Shown piece by piece: positions 11,157-16,628 of a DNA stretch of 64,000 nt. Location of the stretch: positions 36,046 through 100,045 of IMG/VR virus record IMGVR_UViG_3300037483_001148; one strand, given 5' to 3'. The stretch's first letter is position 1. Every line of letters begins with the position of its first letter. The DNA comes from a virus. Below the pieces are notes generated by a model, which searched no databases, was not told the origin of the DNA, and saw nothing but the letters and a program-made list of their open reading frames with translations. The translations under genes and the position numbers were made by a program.

Positions 11157-11561
11157 ATGTCTGACTGTGTGTACTACGCTCTAAACCAACATCTTAGATG
11201 GCTTAGGGTAAGTCCGGTTAGGGTATTTGGGGTATATAACCAGGTACGCTTTCTATCCGGCCATAAATGGAACGATGATACTTTTGCCGGGGTTGTACCT
11301 TACATGGCCTTCCAGCTTGCGAAAATTTATGATGACCTGACAGCCATTGTGGAGCGTAACCCTGACTTTGACCTGTTGGCTCAAGCTAACACAGCAGAGA
11401 AAAAGTTCATGGGGGACATGGGGACAAGCCCCATTACCCCTGGCCCTGGTGTTTATTGTGGTTATTTTTCAGCCCATGCTATCTTCTGGTCACATGAACA
11501 AATGCCGATTGGGGATACATGGGTATTATCAATTAAATTCAGGAGGTTAAAAAATGACTGA
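11157..11561 (+). CDS. hypothetical protein, possible minimal Cys-His (papain-like) peptidase
   Basis: N-terminal DCVYYAL helix and distal SAHAIFW strand; AGGAG RBS; overlaps the Ubl-like gene. Confidence 0.5.
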   Translation: MSDCVYYALNQHLRWLRVSPVRVFGVYNQVRFLSGHKWNDDTFAGVVPYMAFQLAKIYDDLTAIVERNPDFDLLAQANTAEKKFMGDMGTSPITPGPGVYCGYFSAHAIFWSHEQMPIGDTWVLSIKFRRLKND

Positions 11562-11895
11562 AGTATTGACGGTTCAAATTAGAGTTTTGTTTCCAAATAA
11601 CGCTACCCATCACGCTGGTGAATCGGTAGACGTTCCGGCCCATGAGGTTCTTCGAGAAAATGACGACCTGGCCTCAATGTCGGATGCTACCCTGGTTCAC
11701 CGAGTAGAGGCGTATCTGGATTTGCCGGAAGGGACGATGCACGGCATGATCGTGCAACGGCCTGAAGCCGGGAACATTCTCATTACTGCCAAGACCCGAT
11801 TCGGCAATTTTAGTTGTGGGTACTGCGGAGCTACTTTTAGAAACTACCTGGACCTTCGCAATCACTTGACAGTGAATCCCACCCACAGCATCTAA
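11554..11895 (+). CDS. putative ubiquitin-like (beta-grasp) protein fused to a C-terminal C2H2 zinc finger
   Basis: beta-beta-alpha-beta-beta pattern ending GNILITAKTRFG (G84), then C-x2-C-x3-F-x5-L-x2-H-x6-H; AGGAGG RBS; E1-like gene nearby. Confidence 0.65.
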   Translation: MTEVLTVQIRVLFPNNATHHAGESVDVPAHEVLRENDDLASMSDATLVHRVEAYLDLPEGTMHGMIVQRPEAGNILITAKTRFGNFSCGYCGATFRNYLDLRNHLTVNPTHSI

Positions 11896-11917: not shown

Positions 11918-11946
11918 TTGACAAAATGGGTGGTTCGTAGTACACT
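11918..11946 (+). promoter_or_regulatory. sigma70 promoter for the ncRNA/tRNA cassette
   Basis: TTGACA-17 nt-TACACT; predicted +1 near 11953 coincides with the first RNA stem. Confidence 0.8.
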
Positions 11947-11952
11947 AAGACT

Positions 11953-12020
11953 ATCGTTCAACGGCAAGGGCGAACAAACACCAACAGCAAAAGTTTTTTA
12001 GCTCTTACTGCACAGAACGT
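11953..12020 (+). ncRNA. Y-RNA-like element A (minimal, no tRNA domain)
   Basis: CGTTC-AA-CGG-C-AAGGGC-GAACAAAC...GCTCTT-A-CTG-CACA-GAACG; same stem recurs in three downstream elements; upstream of Ro-like gene. Confidence 0.65.
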
Positions 12021-12038
12021 TACAGGATGGCGCGTTGA

Positions 12039-12118
12039 AAGGTAGGATTGACCGACTACCACAAATGCTGGATAAGAATGGTCGTTAAACATTAAACCCC
12101 AGTCACATCCGAAACCTT
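12039..12118 (+). ncRNA. unidentified structured RNA inside the cassette
   Basis: AAGGT/ACCTT, GGAT/ATCC, TGAC/GTCA, CGACTA/TGGTCG pairings. Confidence 0.35.
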
Positions 12119-12126
12119 AAAAATCA

Positions 12127-12268
12127 TTAACCGTTCGACTCTGGCAGCTTACAAACAGTATGGGTTCGATTCCCATATTCCAAGCTTCTTGGAATTAGCC
12201 TAATGGTAGGGCAACAGTCTTTCAAAAACTGTCTAAAAAATGCAGCTTTCAGTACATGGAACGGTTGA
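12127..12268 (+). ncRNA. Y-RNA-like element B (YrlA-like) with circularly permuted tRNA domain
   Basis: Outer stem TTAACCGTTC/GAACGGTTGA; order is T-arm ATGGG-TTCGATT-CCCAT, closed acceptor ATTCCAAG-CTT-CTTGGAAT, D-arm GCCT-AATGGTA-GGGC, anticodon arm ACAGT-CTTTCAAAA-ACTGT. Confidence 0.8.
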
Positions 12269-12275
12269 TACATAA

Positions 12276-12347
12276 TGTGGGGTAGAGCAGAGGTAGCTCG
12301 TCACGCTCATAACGTGAAGGTCGTGAGTTCGATTCTCACCCCCGCTA
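12276..12347 (+). tRNA. tRNA-Met(CAT), initiator-like
   Basis: TGTGGGG/CCCCGCT with 1:72 mismatch, GAGC/GCTC D-stem, TCACG-CTCATAA-CGTGA, GTGAG-TTCGATT-CTCAC; CCA not encoded. Confidence 0.9.
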
Positions 12348-12351
12348 CTAT

Positions 12352-12490
12352 GGCCTCCTAGCTAAAAATGCAATTGAAAGTAACCTAATCACAGAACGAG
12401 TTTCTCGTTCAACCTGGGGTACTTACAAACAATGGACAAAGCGTCAGTCTTAGGAACTGAAGAATCCTGGTTCGATTCCAGGGGAGGCCA
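12352..12490 (+). ncRNA. tRNA(TAG anticodon)-like RNA with a permuted Y-like module inserted in the D-arm (element D)
   Basis: GGCCTCC/GGAGGCC-A acceptor, TCAGT-CTTAGGA-ACTGA, CCTGG-TTCGATT-CCAGG; about 66-nt insert containing CACAGAACGAG-TTT-CTCGTTCAAC. Confidence 0.8.
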
Positions 12491-12491
12491 C

Positions 12492-12622
12492 TAATTCGTT
12501 CAACTCTAATGGCGAACAAACTTATGGTGCAGAGGTAGCACAACAAATTCATACTTTGTCGGTCGCAAGTTCGATTCTTGCTAAGTTTACCAAAAAACCG
12601 CCAATAGAACACAGAACGATTA
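12492..12622 (+). ncRNA. Y-RNA-like element E enclosing an intact tRNA
   Basis: TCGTTC-AAC-TCTA-A-TGGCG-AAC [tRNA] AAAAAC-CGCCA-A-TAGA-ACACA-GAACGA. Confidence 0.75.
12518..12592 (+). tRNA. tRNA with CAT anticodon (Met or Ile2), CCA encoded, nested in element E
   Basis: AAACTTA/TAAGTTT-A-CCA, GTGC-AGAGGTA-GCAC, ACAAA-TTCATAC-TTTGT, GCAAG-TTCGATT-CTTGC. Confidence 0.85.
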
Positions 12623-12627
12623 AAAAG

Positions 12628-12666
12628 AAAACAAAGAGTGGCCGCATTTAGCGGTCATTTTTGTTT
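12628..12666 (+). terminator. intrinsic terminator closing the RNA cassette
   Basis: AAACAAAGAGTGGCCGC-ATTTA-GCGGTCATTTTTGTTT. Confidence 0.8.
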
Positions 12667-12690: not shown

Positions 12691-14169
12691 ATGGAACAAA
12701 ATACTGCCAGAAAGTTATTGTTCGACAATCTCCTAAAACTCCCCCACCGAGACTATAATGAATTAGTCCCCCACTTCTCCAAAGCAATGCTTGATGACCC
12801 CGATTTTACTTCCAAAGCAATGGTTTATCTGTTTACAACTTCAGTGATTCGAGATCAGCAAGACACGGCTGTTATTGCTCTCTTATCGTCACCAGCCCAT
12901 TTTGGCCTTCGAGATGCAGGTAAGGCTTTGTTCGGCCTGGACTTCTACAGAACTGCCAACACGACTGGTATGAAGGCTATGCCCCCATTTCGTCTGTTTC
13001 GCATCTTGCATTACCTTATGGGGTTTGGCCGGTACAAAGGTCAAAAAGCAATTAGTCCCCGACTGACCAGAACGTTGATGAATGACTACCTCACTTTCCT
13101 GGAATCTCATCCTGAGCGTTTTGATCGAGTCATTGCTCTCAATCGGCAAGAGGTTCATGATGCTTATGTCACCTTACATCGCAAACCTTCAGATCGAGTT
13201 AAGGCCATTGTGTTTGAAGACAATCCCCCCGAAGATTCCATTTTCTTTGCTATCAAGCAAGTTGGCCGGGAAGCTGACCCAATGGAAAAGGCAAGATTGG
13301 CAATGAAATTCAAGTTGCCTTATACCGTAGCTTCGGGCTTACTGCCCAAGAAAAACGCGGCAGCGCATGTGGCTCTCATTGATTTGATGTCGCCCACCGA
13401 AGCGGCCAATTCTATCGCCTGGGTAGAAAACTCAGGCGTGCTTGAAATCCCCGAAGTCAAAGCGGCTTTTGCCGCAAAGGTGGCAATGGCTAAGGACGTT
13501 ACCAGCCTGAAGCATCGAAAAAGTAGTGCATCCAAAAATGAAGCTGTTCAGCAAGCCGTATCTCAGGCCAGAGAAAAAGCTACGAGCGAAGCCAAGAAAA
13601 TCACCAAACGGGTTTTGCTCAACATTGATCGTTCCGGCTCAATGCGGCCAGCAATTGAAGTAGCTAAGGAATTTGCCGCTTTTTTAGGGGCAAGGCTGGA
13701 ATCACCTGATTTGCTCTATATGGTGGCTTTTAACGACATGGCTACTCGAATTAAGCCCCGTTCTCTGGCCTTGAGCGATGTTGAAGCAGCTTGCATGCTT
13801 ATAAAGGATAACGGGGCAACGTGTTTGGGAGTTGGGATTCAGACCGCTTTAGCAGATGGATTTGAACCGGAGGTTATTGTAACCCTCAGTGATTTTGAGG
13901 AAAACCGTAGACCCTCGTATTTGGAAATGGCCTCTAAGGTTGATTGCCAGCATGTGTTCATTGGCTTGGGCAACTACAAAGGGTATGCCCAGGCTTATAC
14001 TAATTCAGTGGAAAGCAAAGGGCATGCGGTATCGTTCTTTCCCTACATGGCTTCAGGACGTAATGACTATTACCTGTTTGAGCAAATAGCGGCTATTTTG
14101 GCTGGTCAGGGGAAAAAGAGTTTGGTCCAGGCTATTTTGGATATTGAACTGCCGTATGTGGTGAAGTAA
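12691..14169 (+). CDS. divergent Ro60/TROVE-like helical domain plus C-terminal vWA protein
   Basis: About 300-aa helical N-region (LPHR, DPDF..KAMVYL...IRD, LPYTVA, MSPTE) then LNIDRSGSM, GAT, LSDFEEN MIDAS; Ro60 size and layout; adjacent Y-like RNAs. Confidence 0.75.
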   Translation: MEQNTARKLLFDNLLKLPHRDYNELVPHFSKAMLDDPDFTSKAMVYLFTTSVIRDQQDTAVIALLSSPAHFGLRDAGKALFGLDFYRTANTTGMKAMPPFRLFRILHYLMGFGRYKGQKAISPRLTRTLMNDYLTFLESHPERFDRVIALNRQEVHDAYVTLHRKPSDRVKAIVFEDNPPEDSIFFAIKQVGREADPMEKARLAMKFKLPYTVASGLLPKKNAAAHVALIDLMSPTEAANSIAWVENSGVLEIPEVKAAFAAKVAMAKDVTSLKHRKSSASKNEAVQQAVSQAREKATSEAKKITKRVLLNIDRSGSMRPAIEVAKEFAAFLGARLESPDLLYMVAFNDMATRIKPRSLALSDVEAACMLIKDNGATCLGVGIQTALADGFEPEVIVTLSDFEENRRPSYLEMASKVDCQHVFIGLGNYKGYAQAYTNSVESKGHAVSFFPYMASGRNDYYLFEQIAAILAGQGKKSLVQAILDIELPYVVK

Positions 14170-14645: not shown

Positions 14646-14789
14646 ATGTATCTAAAATTAGGTCCGTTTGCAATAAACGTTAAAATGTATGAACTGATAA
14701 TTGTGTGTATGTCCTTAGTTCTTCTCTGTGCTGGCTTAACCGGCATAGTTAGAGCAATAGTACCTCTATTCATAAAATGTCTTTATTAA
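14646..14789 (+). CDS. small membrane protein
   Basis: GAGGT RBS; one hydrophobic helix. Confidence 0.5.
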   Translation: MYLKLGPFAINVKMYELIIVCMSLVLLCAGLTGIVRAIVPLFIKCLY

Positions 14790-15649
14790 ACGTTCTGAAC
14801 AAGCTAAGTGAACATATCCCCCAACCATTCTTAGCCCCTATCCCTCAGTCTGAAATAGTCTCCTGCTTTACTTTGCAGGAGACTATTCCTTATTGGTTTC
14901 ATCTAACCAACCCTCAACCTGGCTGGTGGTGGTTAAAACCGCATAGAAATGAAGCTGTCTTAAACCGGGAAGCTGAACCTCACGAATATCTATCTTACCT
15001 CTCACAGTTACCTCGCTGGATCGTCATTGTGATAGAGCAAAACCAGCATGGGGTAGTAGTAGTTCCTTACAATGCCTCAGATGCGACTCAACGCGGCTGG
15101 CTTAACTCTGAGCCTCGTTATGTCTATCTCACCAGAAAAGTCCAGCTTCAGACTTTTTCTGTTGTCTGTGTTAGAAACATGGCCGGAACGCTTCTATTTG
15201 ATGATTTCTATCCTTTAGATATAGAAGTGCAAAAAAAGTTGACAGATGGGGTAAACGAACAAAGGCCAGTAGTTGTGCCAGGCCATTTTAGTGTGGTATG
15301 GCAAATCGCTTTCCGGCGAATGGCCGAAGAAAGAGATCGTCAACTAAAAGAAGAAATCGAAAGAAAACGAAAGGAAGCGCAACTAACCGAAGAAGGCCGG
15401 ATTAGATACCGACTGGAATATGTTGGGGCTGAATTAGTTGAATATAAAAAACGAGGGGAACGATTTGATGTCACTTATGAGTACAATGGAGCAAGATTCA
15501 CCATGAATGTTAGACCCGACATGAGGATTGAGAGTGCCGGGATTTGTCTTTCGGGTGAAGATTCTAACCATGATCTATCATCCATTGTACTTACTATGGA
15601 ACGAGCCAGAGAGTTGCACAGACCGGGGATTGAGAGGTATCACCTATGA
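14777..15649 (+). CDS. conserved-looking protein with putative E2-like (Ubl-conjugating) C-terminal Cys motif
   Basis: C-terminal strands then IESAGICLSGED (C257), similar to the G-x-ICL active-site segment of UBC folds; coiled-coil linker; next to ThiF gene. Confidence 0.5.
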   Translation: MSLLNVLNKLSEHIPQPFLAPIPQSEIVSCFTLQETIPYWFHLTNPQPGWWWLKPHRNEAVLNREAEPHEYLSYLSQLPRWIVIVIEQNQHGVVVVPYNASDATQRGWLNSEPRYVYLTRKVQLQTFSVVCVRNMAGTLLFDDFYPLDIEVQKKLTDGVNEQRPVVVPGHFSVVWQIAFRRMAEERDRQLKEEIERKRKEAQLTEEGRIRYRLEYVGAELVEYKKRGERFDVTYEYNGARFTMNVRPDMRIESAGICLSGEDSNHDLSSIVLTMERARELHRPGIERYHL

Positions 15650-16059
15650 CTGTACCTGAATGGGCAATTGATTACATCCAATATTGGCGGGATATTTTAC
15701 TTCTACAAGAATGGCAATTTTTTACCAGCCTGACCGATGAGCCATTAGGCGATAGCCAAAATTTGGCCGGAGTGAATGTTCAAGCTGATTATGTCACGGC
15801 TCGAATTGAAATAAGGGATGACATTCCGGTTAATATAGAAGAAGCTGATGCACTCGACCAGTACAGATGGAAAAAGACGATCATCCATGAATTGGTGCAT
15901 GTAAGGCTATATCGAATTACCTGTTTTGTGCAGGACAACATATTTCCCGAACTAGGCCAGTCACTCTATGGGATAATTAGCAGGCAATTTAAGCAAATGG
16001 TTGAGCCAACAGTCGAAATTTTAACTGAAATCCTATACAGTCTGAGTGAGGCAAAATGA
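15646..16059 (+). CDS. zincin-like metallopeptidase (HExxH)
   Basis: TIIHELVHV with a distal Glu helix (VEPTVEIL). Confidence 0.7.
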   Translation: MTVPEWAIDYIQYWRDILLLQEWQFFTSLTDEPLGDSQNLAGVNVQADYVTARIEIRDDIPVNIEEADALDQYRWKKTIIHELVHVRLYRITCFVQDNIFPELGQSLYGIISRQFKQMVEPTVEILTEILYSLSEAK

Positions 16060-16628
16060 TTATTTTATGCGGTTGTGGCTCAGTTGGATCAAAGATTGCT
16101 CTTGAGCTATCAAGTTTGGATAATGAGTGGATACTTATTGACGATGATGAAATTGAGCCTGAGAATGTTCCTGTCTCAGCATATCTCCATGACCAAATTG
16201 GTCAAACTAAAGTAATAGCTCTGGCTGAATTGCTATGGCGTAAAAATAGGGTAATCGCCAAACCCTACTCAAAAACACTCAGCCGGAATGTTCACCAAAT
16301 TTTTCCAGATGGATTGGTAATTGAAAGTTTTGACAATCCGGCAGCAAGGTTGCTTACCATCAACCCATTTAAGCATGCAGACCATCCGGTAATTCACATC
16401 GGCGTAGATTTAGGTGAAGTAGGCTCAGTAGTTTGGGATGTTCATTACAGGTTGCCGGAGATTGATTTCAACCGAGGTAACAACCCCGTTTGCACGAGGC
16501 AAGCCGGGGCTAATATCATTAGGTTTACTGTTACCATAGCGGTTTATGCCATAAGTCAATACTTAAGCAATGTAGTTAAAAACAGTTATTTTATCAATAA
16601 TGGAATGATAGTGAGGATGAACAAATGA
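16056..16628 (+). CDS. ThiF/MoeB/E1-family adenylyltransferase
   Basis: IILCGCGSVGS Rossmann loop, LIDDDEIEPEN, IGQTKVIAL, ESFDN..AR; candidate catalytic Cys146 (NPVC). Confidence 0.85.
   Translation: MIILCGCGSVGSKIALELSSLDNEWILIDDDEIEPENVPVSAYLHDQIGQTKVIALAELLWRKNRVIAKPYSKTLSRNVHQIFPDGLVIESFDNPAARLLTINPFKHADHPVIHIGVDLGEVGSVVWDVHYRLPEIDFNRGNNPVCTRQAGANIIRFTVTIAVYAISQYLSNVVKNSYFINNGMIVRMNK

What the first reader, a model, noticed from the sequence alone, without database searches (positions are those of the whole stretch)
12352..12490. tRNA(UAG) with an inside-out Y module inserted into its D-arm
Acceptor GGCCTCC/GGAGGCC-A, anticodon arm TCAGT-CTTAGGA-ACTGA and T-arm are perfect, but about 66 nt interrupt the D-arm (about 12364-12429). 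The insert is the Y-like stem circularly permuted: the 3' half (CACAGAACG) comes first and joins the 5' half (CGTTCAAC) through GAG-TTT-CTC, so the tRNA keeps free ends that could be matured and charged. The body looks Arg-like (short 5-nt variable loop, GGA D-loop with A20) while the anticodon reads Leu CUA. Standard tRNA finders would probably miss it.
Basis: partly seen in the sequence, partly recalled or inferred. Interest (0 to 1): 0.85.

Follow-up and report, generated by a model that had tools for sequence, protein, structure and literature searches.

The report
tRNA-shaped Y RNA beside phage Ro60
A sediment phage encodes a 139-base RNA that has a complete tRNA outline with free ends, but carries inside it, in reversed strand order, the hairpin "handle" shared by the partner RNAs of the phage's own Ro60-like ring protein; it is most likely a new wiring of the known tRNA-mimicking Y RNAs and not a working leucine tRNA.

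Summary
Window 12352-12490 has a perfect 7-bp acceptor stem, a canonical T arm and a 5-bp/7-nt anticodon arm (UAG). These are interrupted by about 67 nt, so ARAGORN and Rfam miss it. In-silico removal of the insert gives tRNA-Leu(tag).

The insert is the array's Y module with its strands in reversed order:
- Its halves align to the 3' and 5' strands of three neighbouring modules.
- It keeps their helix signature and the ACAAAC motif exactly 19 nt after CGTTC.

The downstream 492-aa protein has a Ro60 fold.

Six more "long tRNA frames" with reversed hairpins lie upstream of homologous Ro-like genes in four other phage loci. Their stems covary by locus.

Best reading: a Ro60-partner Y RNA of the tRNA-mimic (YrlA-like) kind in a new connectivity. 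[quoted passage not shown]

Whether it is charged or decodes is untested. Two of the seven frames have non-canonical anticodon loops, and the body lacks the long variable arm of bacterial tRNA-Leu. The exact insertion point (within the D loop, or after a vestigial D hairpin) is unresolved.

This scan has already noted the same class on other DNA (unchecked notes). I found no description in print.

The parts
11918..11946 (+). Sigma-70-like promoter (TTGACA-17-TACACT) placed to start the RNA array about 11953
   Evidence: 10 of 12 matches; a consensus match only
11953..12022 (+). Y1: plain Y-like module (5' strand CGTTCAAC, 3' strand CACAGAACG), no tRNA part
12129..12266 (+). Y2: ordinary-order Y module around a permuted tRNA-like core with its acceptor closed by a loop (YrlA-like)
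   Evidence: (Rfam YrlA 22.5 bits, below threshold)
12276..12348 (+). Free tRNA(CAU); it ends 4 nt before base 1 of the element
12352..12490 (+). The element: 139-nt tRNA-framed Y RNA (acceptor 12352-12358 / 12483-12489, A73 at 12490)
12361..12363 (+). GCT, proposed D-stem 5' strand (pairs with AGC 12440-12442); alternatively part of a 2-bp local hairpin with GC 12370-12371
   Evidence: -44.6 against -45.2 kcal/mol, unresolved
12374..12428 (+). Reversed Y hairpin: basal and middle stems, internal loop, apical stem GAACGAG (12394-12400) - TTT - CTCGTTC (12404-12410)
12425..12430 (+). ACAAAC linker motif, exactly 19 nt after CGTTC as in Y1, Y2 and Y4
   Evidence: 4 in the array against 0.33 expected
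12434..12443 (+). GGACAAAGCG: candidate G18 G19 A20 ... A21, D-stem 3' strand AGC (12440-12442), G26
   Evidence: numbering by inspection
12444..12460 (+). Anticodon arm TCAGT-CTTAGGA-ACTGA; anticodon TAG at 12451-12453, U33, G37
12466..12482 (+). T arm CCTGG-TTCGATT-CCAGG
12492..12622 (+). Y4: tRNA(CAU) with encoded CCA (12518-12592) enclosed by an ordinary-order Y stem
12634..12662 (+). Intrinsic-terminator-like hairpin plus T run ending the array
12691..14169 (+). 492-aa Ro60-fold protein (helical ring part plus vWA domain), the presumed partner

Best explanation
The element is a partner RNA (Y RNA) of the phage's Ro60-like protein, built on a tRNA frame.

Proposed steps, all inferred:
1. 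It is transcribed as part of a roughly 715-nt array (Y1, Y2, tRNA, this element, Y4).
2. It is released by RNase P at 12351/12352 and by 3' trimming after A12490, then given CCA.
3. It folds into a tRNA-like L shape, with the Y hairpin projecting from the D region.
4. The Ro60-like ring binds the hairpin (invariant ACG/CGU core, adjacent mismatch, ACAAAC 19 nt downstream).

The tRNA body plays the role of the tRNA-like domain of YrlA. It acts as a nuclease-resistant, correctly processed scaffold and as a docking surface for tRNA-binding proteins. Because the Y stem is closed by a loop, the only free ends are protected tRNA acceptor ends.

Shown here: the anatomy, the homology of the insert to the ordinary modules, the Ro60 fold of the neighbouring protein, and recurrence with covariation in other loci.

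Inferred only: processing, Ro binding, and the role of the tRNA body.
For: - The insert halves align to the 3' and 5' strands of Y1, Y2 and Y4, with CGTTC.AC, ACAAAC and CA..GAACG conserved.
- It has the same helix signature as its neighbours: mismatch, GC, AU, then the core AU-CG-GC.
- ACAAAC lies at offset 19 in all four window modules.
- The neighbouring protein has a Ro60 fold: pLDDT 80, and the top 12 Foldseek hits are all Ro60/Rsr/TROVE, with TM up to 0.58. Distant family members reach Pfam vWA_Ro60.
- Six further long tRNA frames lie in the arrays upstream of homologous Ro-like genes (L001, L002 x2, L003, L010 x2). Each has a reversed hairpin carrying its own locus's stem.
- The first inner pair is AU, CG, UA, UG or GC depending on locus, while the core is invariant in 18 modules.
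- A promoter and a terminator bracket the array.
- Precedent: M. smegmatis YrlA has a 7-bp acceptor, is cut by RNase P in vitro, and is cleaved and receives CCA in vivo (PMC4201824). A phage Ro60 binds Y-like RNAs encoded upstream of its gene (PMC12135203).
- Non-canonical anticodon loops in L001 and L003 argue for mimicry over decoding.
Against: - There are no expression, processing or binding data. No RNA run holding the locus was available.
- The protein is not recognised as TROVE by Pfam or by sequence search against the PDB.
- The published YrlA Ro-binding motif GNCGAAN0-1G is absent, so Ro binding rests on context and analogy.
- This particular member has a fully canonical anticodon loop (C32, U33, UAG, G37, A38) and A73, as a real tRNA would.
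- The D-region fold is ambiguous.
Confidence: 0.66

Rival explanations
1. It is a genuine decoding tRNA(UAG) that keeps the hairpin. It is charged (Leu or another amino acid) and used in translation, and the Ro60-like protein binds, stores or delivers it.
For: - It has a canonical 7-nt anticodon loop with U33 and G36-G37, plus A73, a perfect acceptor and T arm, and plausible tertiary pairs.
- ARAGORN calls Leu(tag) once the insert is removed.
- CUA makes up 14% of Leu codons in long + strand ORFs of the phage.
- L002_3427 (UGU) and L010_954 (CAU) also have canonical loops on both fold inspection and excision; L010_447 (UCG) looks canonical in the fold only.
Against: - The 5-nt variable loop is unlike the class II body of bacterial tRNA-Leu (established knowledge).
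- A 55-nt helix projecting near the elbow may clash with the ribosome (inference).
- L001 and L003 have 9-nt and 8/6-nt loops.
- Identity elements are inconsistent in relatives. For example, L010_447 has anticodon UCG but U73 and no A20.
Confidence: 0.17
2. The insert is an intron-like element that is excised and the halves ligated, giving an ordinary 72-76-nt tRNA.
For: In-silico excision yields a recognisable tRNA. Archaeal tRNAs can carry introns outside the anticodon loop (PMC3241643, listed).
Against: - At 67 nt the insert is far too small for a group I core, and no intron family hits in Rfam.
- The junction flanks are A-rich and A/C-rich and stay unpaired in all folds, so no bulge-helix-bulge can form.
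- No splicing endonuclease or RtcB is found in the roughly 80%-complete genome.
- The insert is the conserved Ro-module itself, which is kept in 7 frames.
Confidence: 0.04
3. It is a dead tRNA gene disrupted by duplication of a neighbouring module, or a chance arrangement with no function of its own.
For: The module is repeated four times locally, so local duplication is plausible as its origin.
Against: - All helices are intact.
- The same architecture recurs seven times in five loci whose Ro-like proteins are only 26-36% identical to the window's, with locus-specific compensatory stems.
- The scanner's background rate is about 1.6 hits per Mb.
Confidence: 0.04

Closest known systems
YrlA (Y RNA-like A; Rfam RF02553; Chen et al. 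2014, PMC4201824)
   Same: It is encoded next to a Ro60-type gene, often in multiple copies, and combines a Ro-binding stem with a tRNA-like domain (T arm, D region, acceptor stem).
   Different: - The connectivity is reversed. In YrlA the RNA ends lie in the Ro-binding stem and the acceptor is closed by a loop. Here the Ro-type stem is closed and the acceptor carries the ends.
- A full anticodon arm is present.
- The GNCGAAN0-1G motif is absent.
- There is no Rfam YrlA hit for this element.
[quoted passage not shown]
   Same: The end product is a Y RNA whose tRNA-like domain has a free 7-bp acceptor end able to receive CCA.
   Different: The mycobacterial form is two base-paired fragments made by cleavage. 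Here a single chain is encoded directly in that topology.
Thermus phage phiLo Ro60 with Yrl1/Yrl2 (PMC12135203; PDB 9kop, 9l5y)
   Same: It is a phage-encoded Ro60-fold protein with Y-like RNAs encoded just upstream. The phiLo structures are among the fold hits.
   Different: The phiLo RNAs are plain stem-bulge-stem Y RNAs with a CGAA motif, and no tRNA frame is reported. The protein here belongs to a divergent family that Pfam does not recognise as TROVE.
Engineered tRNA scaffolds that display a foreign RNA hairpin (from memory, not checked here)
   Same: A tRNA body supplies folding, processing and nuclease resistance for an inserted hairpin.
   Different: Those are artificial and carry the insert in the anticodon stem. 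This one is natural, and its insert lies in the D region.
tRNA genes with non-canonical introns (archaeal bulge-helix-bulge type; PMC3241643)
   Same: A tRNA outline is interrupted outside the anticodon loop.
   Different: There is no bulge-helix-bulge, no endonuclease gene was found, the promoter, terminator and Shine-Dalgarno signals are bacterial-type, and the insert is a conserved protein-binding module.

Membership tests
Canonical decoding tRNA (Rfam RF00005) | 7-bp acceptor stem with discriminator base | tested here: met
   GGCCTCC/GGAGGCC plus A73; pair probabilities 0.99-1.0
Canonical decoding tRNA (Rfam RF00005) | T arm: 5-bp stem, 7-nt TTCRANY loop, G53-C61 | tested here: met
   CCTGG-TTCGATT-CCAGG
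Canonical decoding tRNA (Rfam RF00005) | 5-bp anticodon stem, 7-nt loop with U33 and purine 37 | tested here: met
   TCAGT-CTTAGGA-ACTGA
Canonical decoding tRNA (Rfam RF00005) | Contiguous D arm (3-4 bp, 7-11-nt loop with GG) | tested here: not met
   The D stem is either split by about 67 nt, or reduced to a 2-bp hairpin without GG
Canonical decoding tRNA (Rfam RF00005) | Detected by tRNA models at threshold | tested here: not met
   No ARAGORN call, also in intron mode; Rfam gives 26.8 bits against a 29-bit cut-off, for a partial match only
Canonical decoding tRNA (Rfam RF00005) | Long variable arm, as expected of bacterial tRNA-Leu | tested here: not met
   The variable loop AGAAT is 5 nt; the expectation comes from established knowledge
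Canonical decoding tRNA (Rfam RF00005) | Aminoacylation and ribosomal decoding | not testable with these tools
   Needs wet-lab assays
YrlA (Rfam RF02553) | Encoded beside a Ro60/Rsr gene | tested here: met
   The 492-aa neighbour has a Ro60 fold, though Pfam TROVE does not hit
YrlA (Rfam RF02553) | tRNA-like domain with T arm, D region and acceptor stem | tested here: met
YrlA (Rfam RF02553) | RNA termini in the Ro-binding stem; acceptor-like stem closed by a loop | tested here: not met
   The reverse holds: the Y stem is closed by TTT and the acceptor is open
YrlA (Rfam RF02553) | GNCGAAN0-1G motif in the 5' strand of the Ro-binding module | tested here: not met
   No match in any Y stem of the window or of the related arrays
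YrlA (Rfam RF02553) | Covariance-model score at or above gathering (69 bits) | tested here: not met
   No hit on 12352-12490; neighbour Y2 scores 22.5 bits
YrlA (Rfam RF02553) | Bound by the Ro60 protein | not testable with these tools
   Needs RIP or EMSA
Intron-bearing tRNA (group I or bulge-helix-bulge) | Group I catalytic core, or a bulge-helix-bulge at the junctions | tested here: not met
   The insert is 67 nt; no intron family hits in Rfam; the junction flanks are unpaired in all folds
Intron-bearing tRNA (group I or bulge-helix-bulge) | Splicing endonuclease or RNA ligase available | tested here: inconclusive
   No tRNA_int_endo or RtcB in the roughly 80%-complete phage record; the Rnl1 control was silent; the host is unknown
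Permuted tRNA genes (3' half before 5' half) | tRNA halves in swapped order | tested here: not met
   The tRNA parts are in normal order. It is the Y module that is permuted. The neighbour Y2 is the permuted-tRNA type

The most novel reading that the evidence does not exclude
The RNA is a chargeable, Ro60-tethered tRNA. After RNase P and CCA maturation it is aminoacylated, and the phage Ro60-like ring holds it through the hairpin. This would physically link an RNA-surveillance protein to a translation substrate. Possible purposes are to shield or ration a tRNA during infection, or to bait host enzymes that attack tRNA. The same module is grafted in four topologies in this one array: plain, around a sealed tRNA core, around a whole tRNA, and inside a tRNA. 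That would make this locus a natural experiment on what the tRNA-like domain of Y RNAs is for.
Probability: 0.15. Interest if true: 0.85.

Novelty: new variant of a known kind. Interest (0 to 1): 0.62.

Why it matters
The purpose of the tRNA-like domain of bacterial Y RNAs has been an open question since 2014.

This phage family shows that the Ro-binding module and the tRNA body are separable parts, and that they can be joined in several connectivities. One of these leaves a complete tRNA with natural ends and a canonical anticodon loop.

That gives a direct handle for testing which part is selected for: the tRNA shape, the acceptor end or the anticodon loop.

It also shows that tRNA and ncRNA annotation pipelines systematically miss such genes. 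Finally, it extends Ro60/Y RNA systems to a large, divergent phage protein family (about 1,160 cluster representatives) that Pfam does not label as TROVE.

Tried and rejected
The contigs of the closest relatives (P0002-P0006, 53-61% identical Ro-like proteins) could therefore not be read. This blocked the best test of anticodon and D-stem conservation.
- **The search for related loci**: a 38-sequence alignment was too diverse. A tighter alignment recovered only the same two viral loci, and nothing in genome contigs.
- **tblastn against GenBank phages**, with the window protein and with P0125, found only one uncultured 595-kb phage.
- **Pattern scans** for the reversed hairpin in the viral and genome collections returned only chance-like matches. 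None lay inside a tRNA frame, so I used them as a null set.
- **The look-up of sequencing runs**: no RNA holder was listed, and the only full holder is probably the source metagenome.
- **MAFFT alignment of the seven hairpins** misaligned the window copy. I replaced it with a core-anchored pair table.
- **Rnl1 (PF09511) search**: the control did not ring, so the result is uninformative.
- **PDB sequence search** with the protein found nothing; only the fold search did.
- **Rejected readings**:
  - The ORF on the minus strand (12409-12612, 67 aa) overlaps tRNA sequence and is spurious.
  - The partial Rfam tRNA alignment that uses GGGTACT as the acceptor has two mismatches and is inferior to the full frame.

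Full report
**Observation.** The stretch 12352-12490 reads as follows:
- a 7-nt strand GGCCTCC, then TA and GCT;
- a long interruption;
- GGACAAAGCG, then the arm TCAGT-CTTAGGA-ACTGA, then AGAAT;
- the arm CCTGG-TTCGATT-CCAGG, then GGAGGCC and A.

Inside the interruption, CACAGAACG (12390-12398) precedes CGTTCAAC (12406-12413). The two are joined as the hairpin GAACGAG-TTT-CTCGTTC.

ARAGORN and Rfam at gathering threshold report only the flanking tRNA(CAU) genes. A permissive Rfam search gives a partial tRNA match of 26.8 bits against a cut-off of 29. ARAGORN's intron mode finds nothing.

Removing 63-74 nt in silico makes ARAGORN call tRNA-Leu(tag) in 90 of 192 variants. A wider sweep gives 220 Leu(tag) calls out of 350.

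The 139-nt RNA folds to -45.2 kcal/mol, z = -3.6 against shuffles. Pair probabilities are about 1.0 for the acceptor and the apical hairpin, 0.91-0.99 for the T arm and 0.48-0.88 for the anticodon stem. The same fold appears in the 350-nt precursor context.

**The insert is the local Y module with its strands swapped.** The motifs CGTTC[AG]AC and CA[CT][AG]GAACG each occur four times on the + strand of the 100-kb genome. All eight lie within one 700-nt array. Their order is 5'-3', 5'-3', 3'-5', 5'-3', and the reversed pair is the one in this element.

The second half of the insert aligns with the 5' strands of modules Y1, Y2 and Y4 (CGTTC.AC and ACAAAC invariant). The first half aligns with their 3' strands (AAAAA...CA..GAACG). 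ACAAAC lies exactly 19 nt after the C of CGTTC in all four modules, giving four occurrences in the array against 0.33 expected from genome density.

Anchored on the ACG/CGU core, the reversed hairpin has the same signature as Y1 and Y4: mismatch, G-C, A-U, then the core.

**Context.** A TTGACA-17-TACACT promoter-like site (11918-11946) and a terminator-like hairpin (12634-12662) bracket the array. The array contains:
- Y1, a plain module;
- a 106-nt unassigned spacer;
- Y2, with ordinary strand order around a tRNA-like core whose acceptor is closed by a loop (weak Rfam YrlA hit of 22.5 bits);
- a free tRNA(CAU) ending 4 nt before base 1 of the element;
- the element itself;
- Y4, a whole tRNA(CAU) with encoded CCA enclosed in a Y stem.

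The next gene (12691-14169, 492 aa) is seen by Pfam only as a marginal vWA domain, by PHROGs as a weak "RNA-binding protein", and not at all by sequence search of the PDB. Its AlphaFold model (pLDDT 80) nevertheless matches Ro60, Rsr and TROVE structures as its twelve best full-length hits. These include D. radiodurans Rsr and human Ro60 (TM 0.58) and the Thermus phage phiLo protein.

A profile search finds about 1,160 cluster representatives. Some distant members reach Pfam's Ro60 vWA domain above its cut-off. The array therefore sits where Y RNAs are expected.

**Relatives.** Ro-like homologs were located in two IMG/VR contigs, five metagenome contigs and one 595-kb uncultured phage.

I wrote a scanner for a T arm followed by a 7-nt strand whose perfect complement lies 95-220 nt upstream. 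In the whole 100-kb genome it finds only the element. It also finds six more frames, every one in the RNA array upstream of a Ro-like gene: L001 3315-3446, L002 3427-3550 and 3660-3789, L003 2425-2559, L010 447-571 and 954-1080. In 3.8 Mb of unrelated strand sequence it finds six hits, none containing the hairpin.

In each locus the 3'-before-5' strand order occurs only inside these frames, and ordinary order occurs only outside them.

Across 18 modules the core A-U, C-G, G-C is invariant and the third inner position is always a mismatch. The first inner pair is A-U, C-G, U-A, U-G or G-C according to locus. Reversed and ordinary modules of one locus share it. That is compensatory variation in a helix common to both topologies.

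Loci L004-L007 carry a single plain Y RNA and no tRNA part.

**Where the hairpin sits.** In L001, L003 and L010_447 an intact D arm with GG comes before the hairpin, so there the hairpin lies between the D arm and the anticodon arm.

In the window no GG precedes the hairpin. GG follows it (12434-12435), and GCT (12361-12363) can pair with AGC (12440-12442). That gives a textbook set of tertiary partners by inspection: U8, A14, A15-U48, G18 G19, A21, A9-A23-U12, G10-C25-G45 and G26-A44.

However, this cloverleaf (-44.6 kcal/mol) and a fold with a local 2-bp hairpin (-45.2) are energetically equivalent. In addition, the CT of GCT belongs to the module's conserved CTAAAAA flank. L010_954 shows the same ambiguity. 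I regard insertion within the D loop as the more likely reading, at about 60%, but unproven.

**Mechanism.** Chen et al. 2014 (PMC4201824) showed three things:
- Bacterial and phage Y RNAs next to Ro60 genes carry a tRNA-like domain.
- tRNA modification enzymes act on that domain.
- M. smegmatis YrlA, the one with a 7-bp acceptor, is cleaved by RNase P in vitro, and in vivo it is cleaved and receives CCA.

The present RNA encodes that end state in one chain: an open acceptor and a closed Ro stem. I therefore infer RNase P cleavage at 12351/12352, 3' trimming, CCA addition, and binding of the Ro60-like ring to the hairpin. In this model the tRNA body serves as a stable, processable scaffold and as a docking surface for tRNA-binding proteins. 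None of these steps is shown here.

**Decoding.** Several points argue against a primary decoding role:
- The class is heterogeneous. L001 has a 9-nt loop, L003 an 8- or 6-nt loop, and L002_3660 is ambiguous.
- A Leu anticodon sits on a short-variable-loop body.
- Identity elements are inconsistent in relatives.

In favour of decoding, this member's loop is fully canonical and it has A73.

**Excision.** Excision is unlikely. The insert is too small for a group I core. Its junctions cannot form a bulge-helix-bulge. No endonuclease or RtcB gene was found. And the insert is the conserved module itself.

**Novelty.** Three literature searches and readings of the YrlA, phiLo Ro60, jumbo-phage and tRNA-mimic papers turned up no description of a Y module closed into a hairpin inside a tRNA frame.

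Earlier notes of this same scan report tRNA-shaped Y RNAs beside phage Ro60 genes on other DNA, with the hairpin in the anticodon stem or loop or next to the T arm. Those notes are unchecked and I did not use them as evidence. They do mean that the class is not new to this scan. What this window adds is a D-region insertion site, a divergent Ro60-like family, and one array showing four topologies side by side.

I file it as a new variant of a known kind (YrlA-type tRNA-mimicking Y RNAs). It is not a member of Rfam YrlA, because three defining features failed: the connectivity, the GNCGAA motif and the model score.

Noticed in passing
window 12023-12128: A 106-nt stretch between Y1 and Y2 inside the same transcription unit. 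It has no Y motif, no tRNA feature and no Rfam hit. It could be another structured RNA or just a spacer.
   Followed up: no
window 12129-12266: Y2 is a permuted tRNA-like core (T arm, acceptor closed by CTTC, D arm with GG, anticodon-like arm with a 9-nt loop) held in an ordinary Y stem attached at the variable-loop position. Rfam YrlA scores only 22.5 bits.
   Followed up: partly
window 12492-12622: Y4 is a complete tRNA(CAU) with encoded CCA whose leader and trailer form the Y stem. The same 'caged tRNA' design recurs in L001 (anticodons TTA and AAG), L003 (TCG) and L010 (TGT).
   Followed up: partly
L010 2420-2445: A closed Y-like hairpin in reversed strand order (GGATGC-GGAA-GCGTCC, followed by CCAAC) sits in the leader of the Ro-like gene itself, about 10 nt before its ribosome-binding site. 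It may be an autoregulatory operator.
   Followed up: no
window 11554-11895, 14777-15649, 16056-16628; L001, L002, L003-L007: The Ro-like gene travels with a ~290-aa protein of no known family and a short ThiF/E1-like protein (L001, L002, L004-L007). A Ubl-like/zinc-finger protein also recurs (L003, L007). This is a conserved phage gene set of unknown purpose. E1-like enzymes with Ubl sulfur carriers are known from tRNA thiolation (from memory).
   Followed up: partly
L001 3481-3555 and 3629-3702: The caged tRNAs have anticodon TTA (which would read the UAA stop codon) and AAG (Leu) on 74-75-nt bodies with short variable loops. These are odd for decoding tRNAs.
   Followed up: no
L004-L007, about 100 nt upstream of the Ro-like gene: This sub-family has one plain Y RNA (CATCGTTCTCTCCTGGGCAAC ... 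GTTGCCTAGGTTAGAACGGTG) with no tRNA part and no ACAAAC motif.
   Followed up: no
window 12276-12348: The free tRNA(CAU) has a position 1-72 mismatch but no G-C-rich anticodon stem. ATA codons are frequent in the phage (293 against 402 ATG in long + strand ORFs), so it may be a lysidine-type tRNA-Ile rather than tRNA-Met.
   Followed up: no
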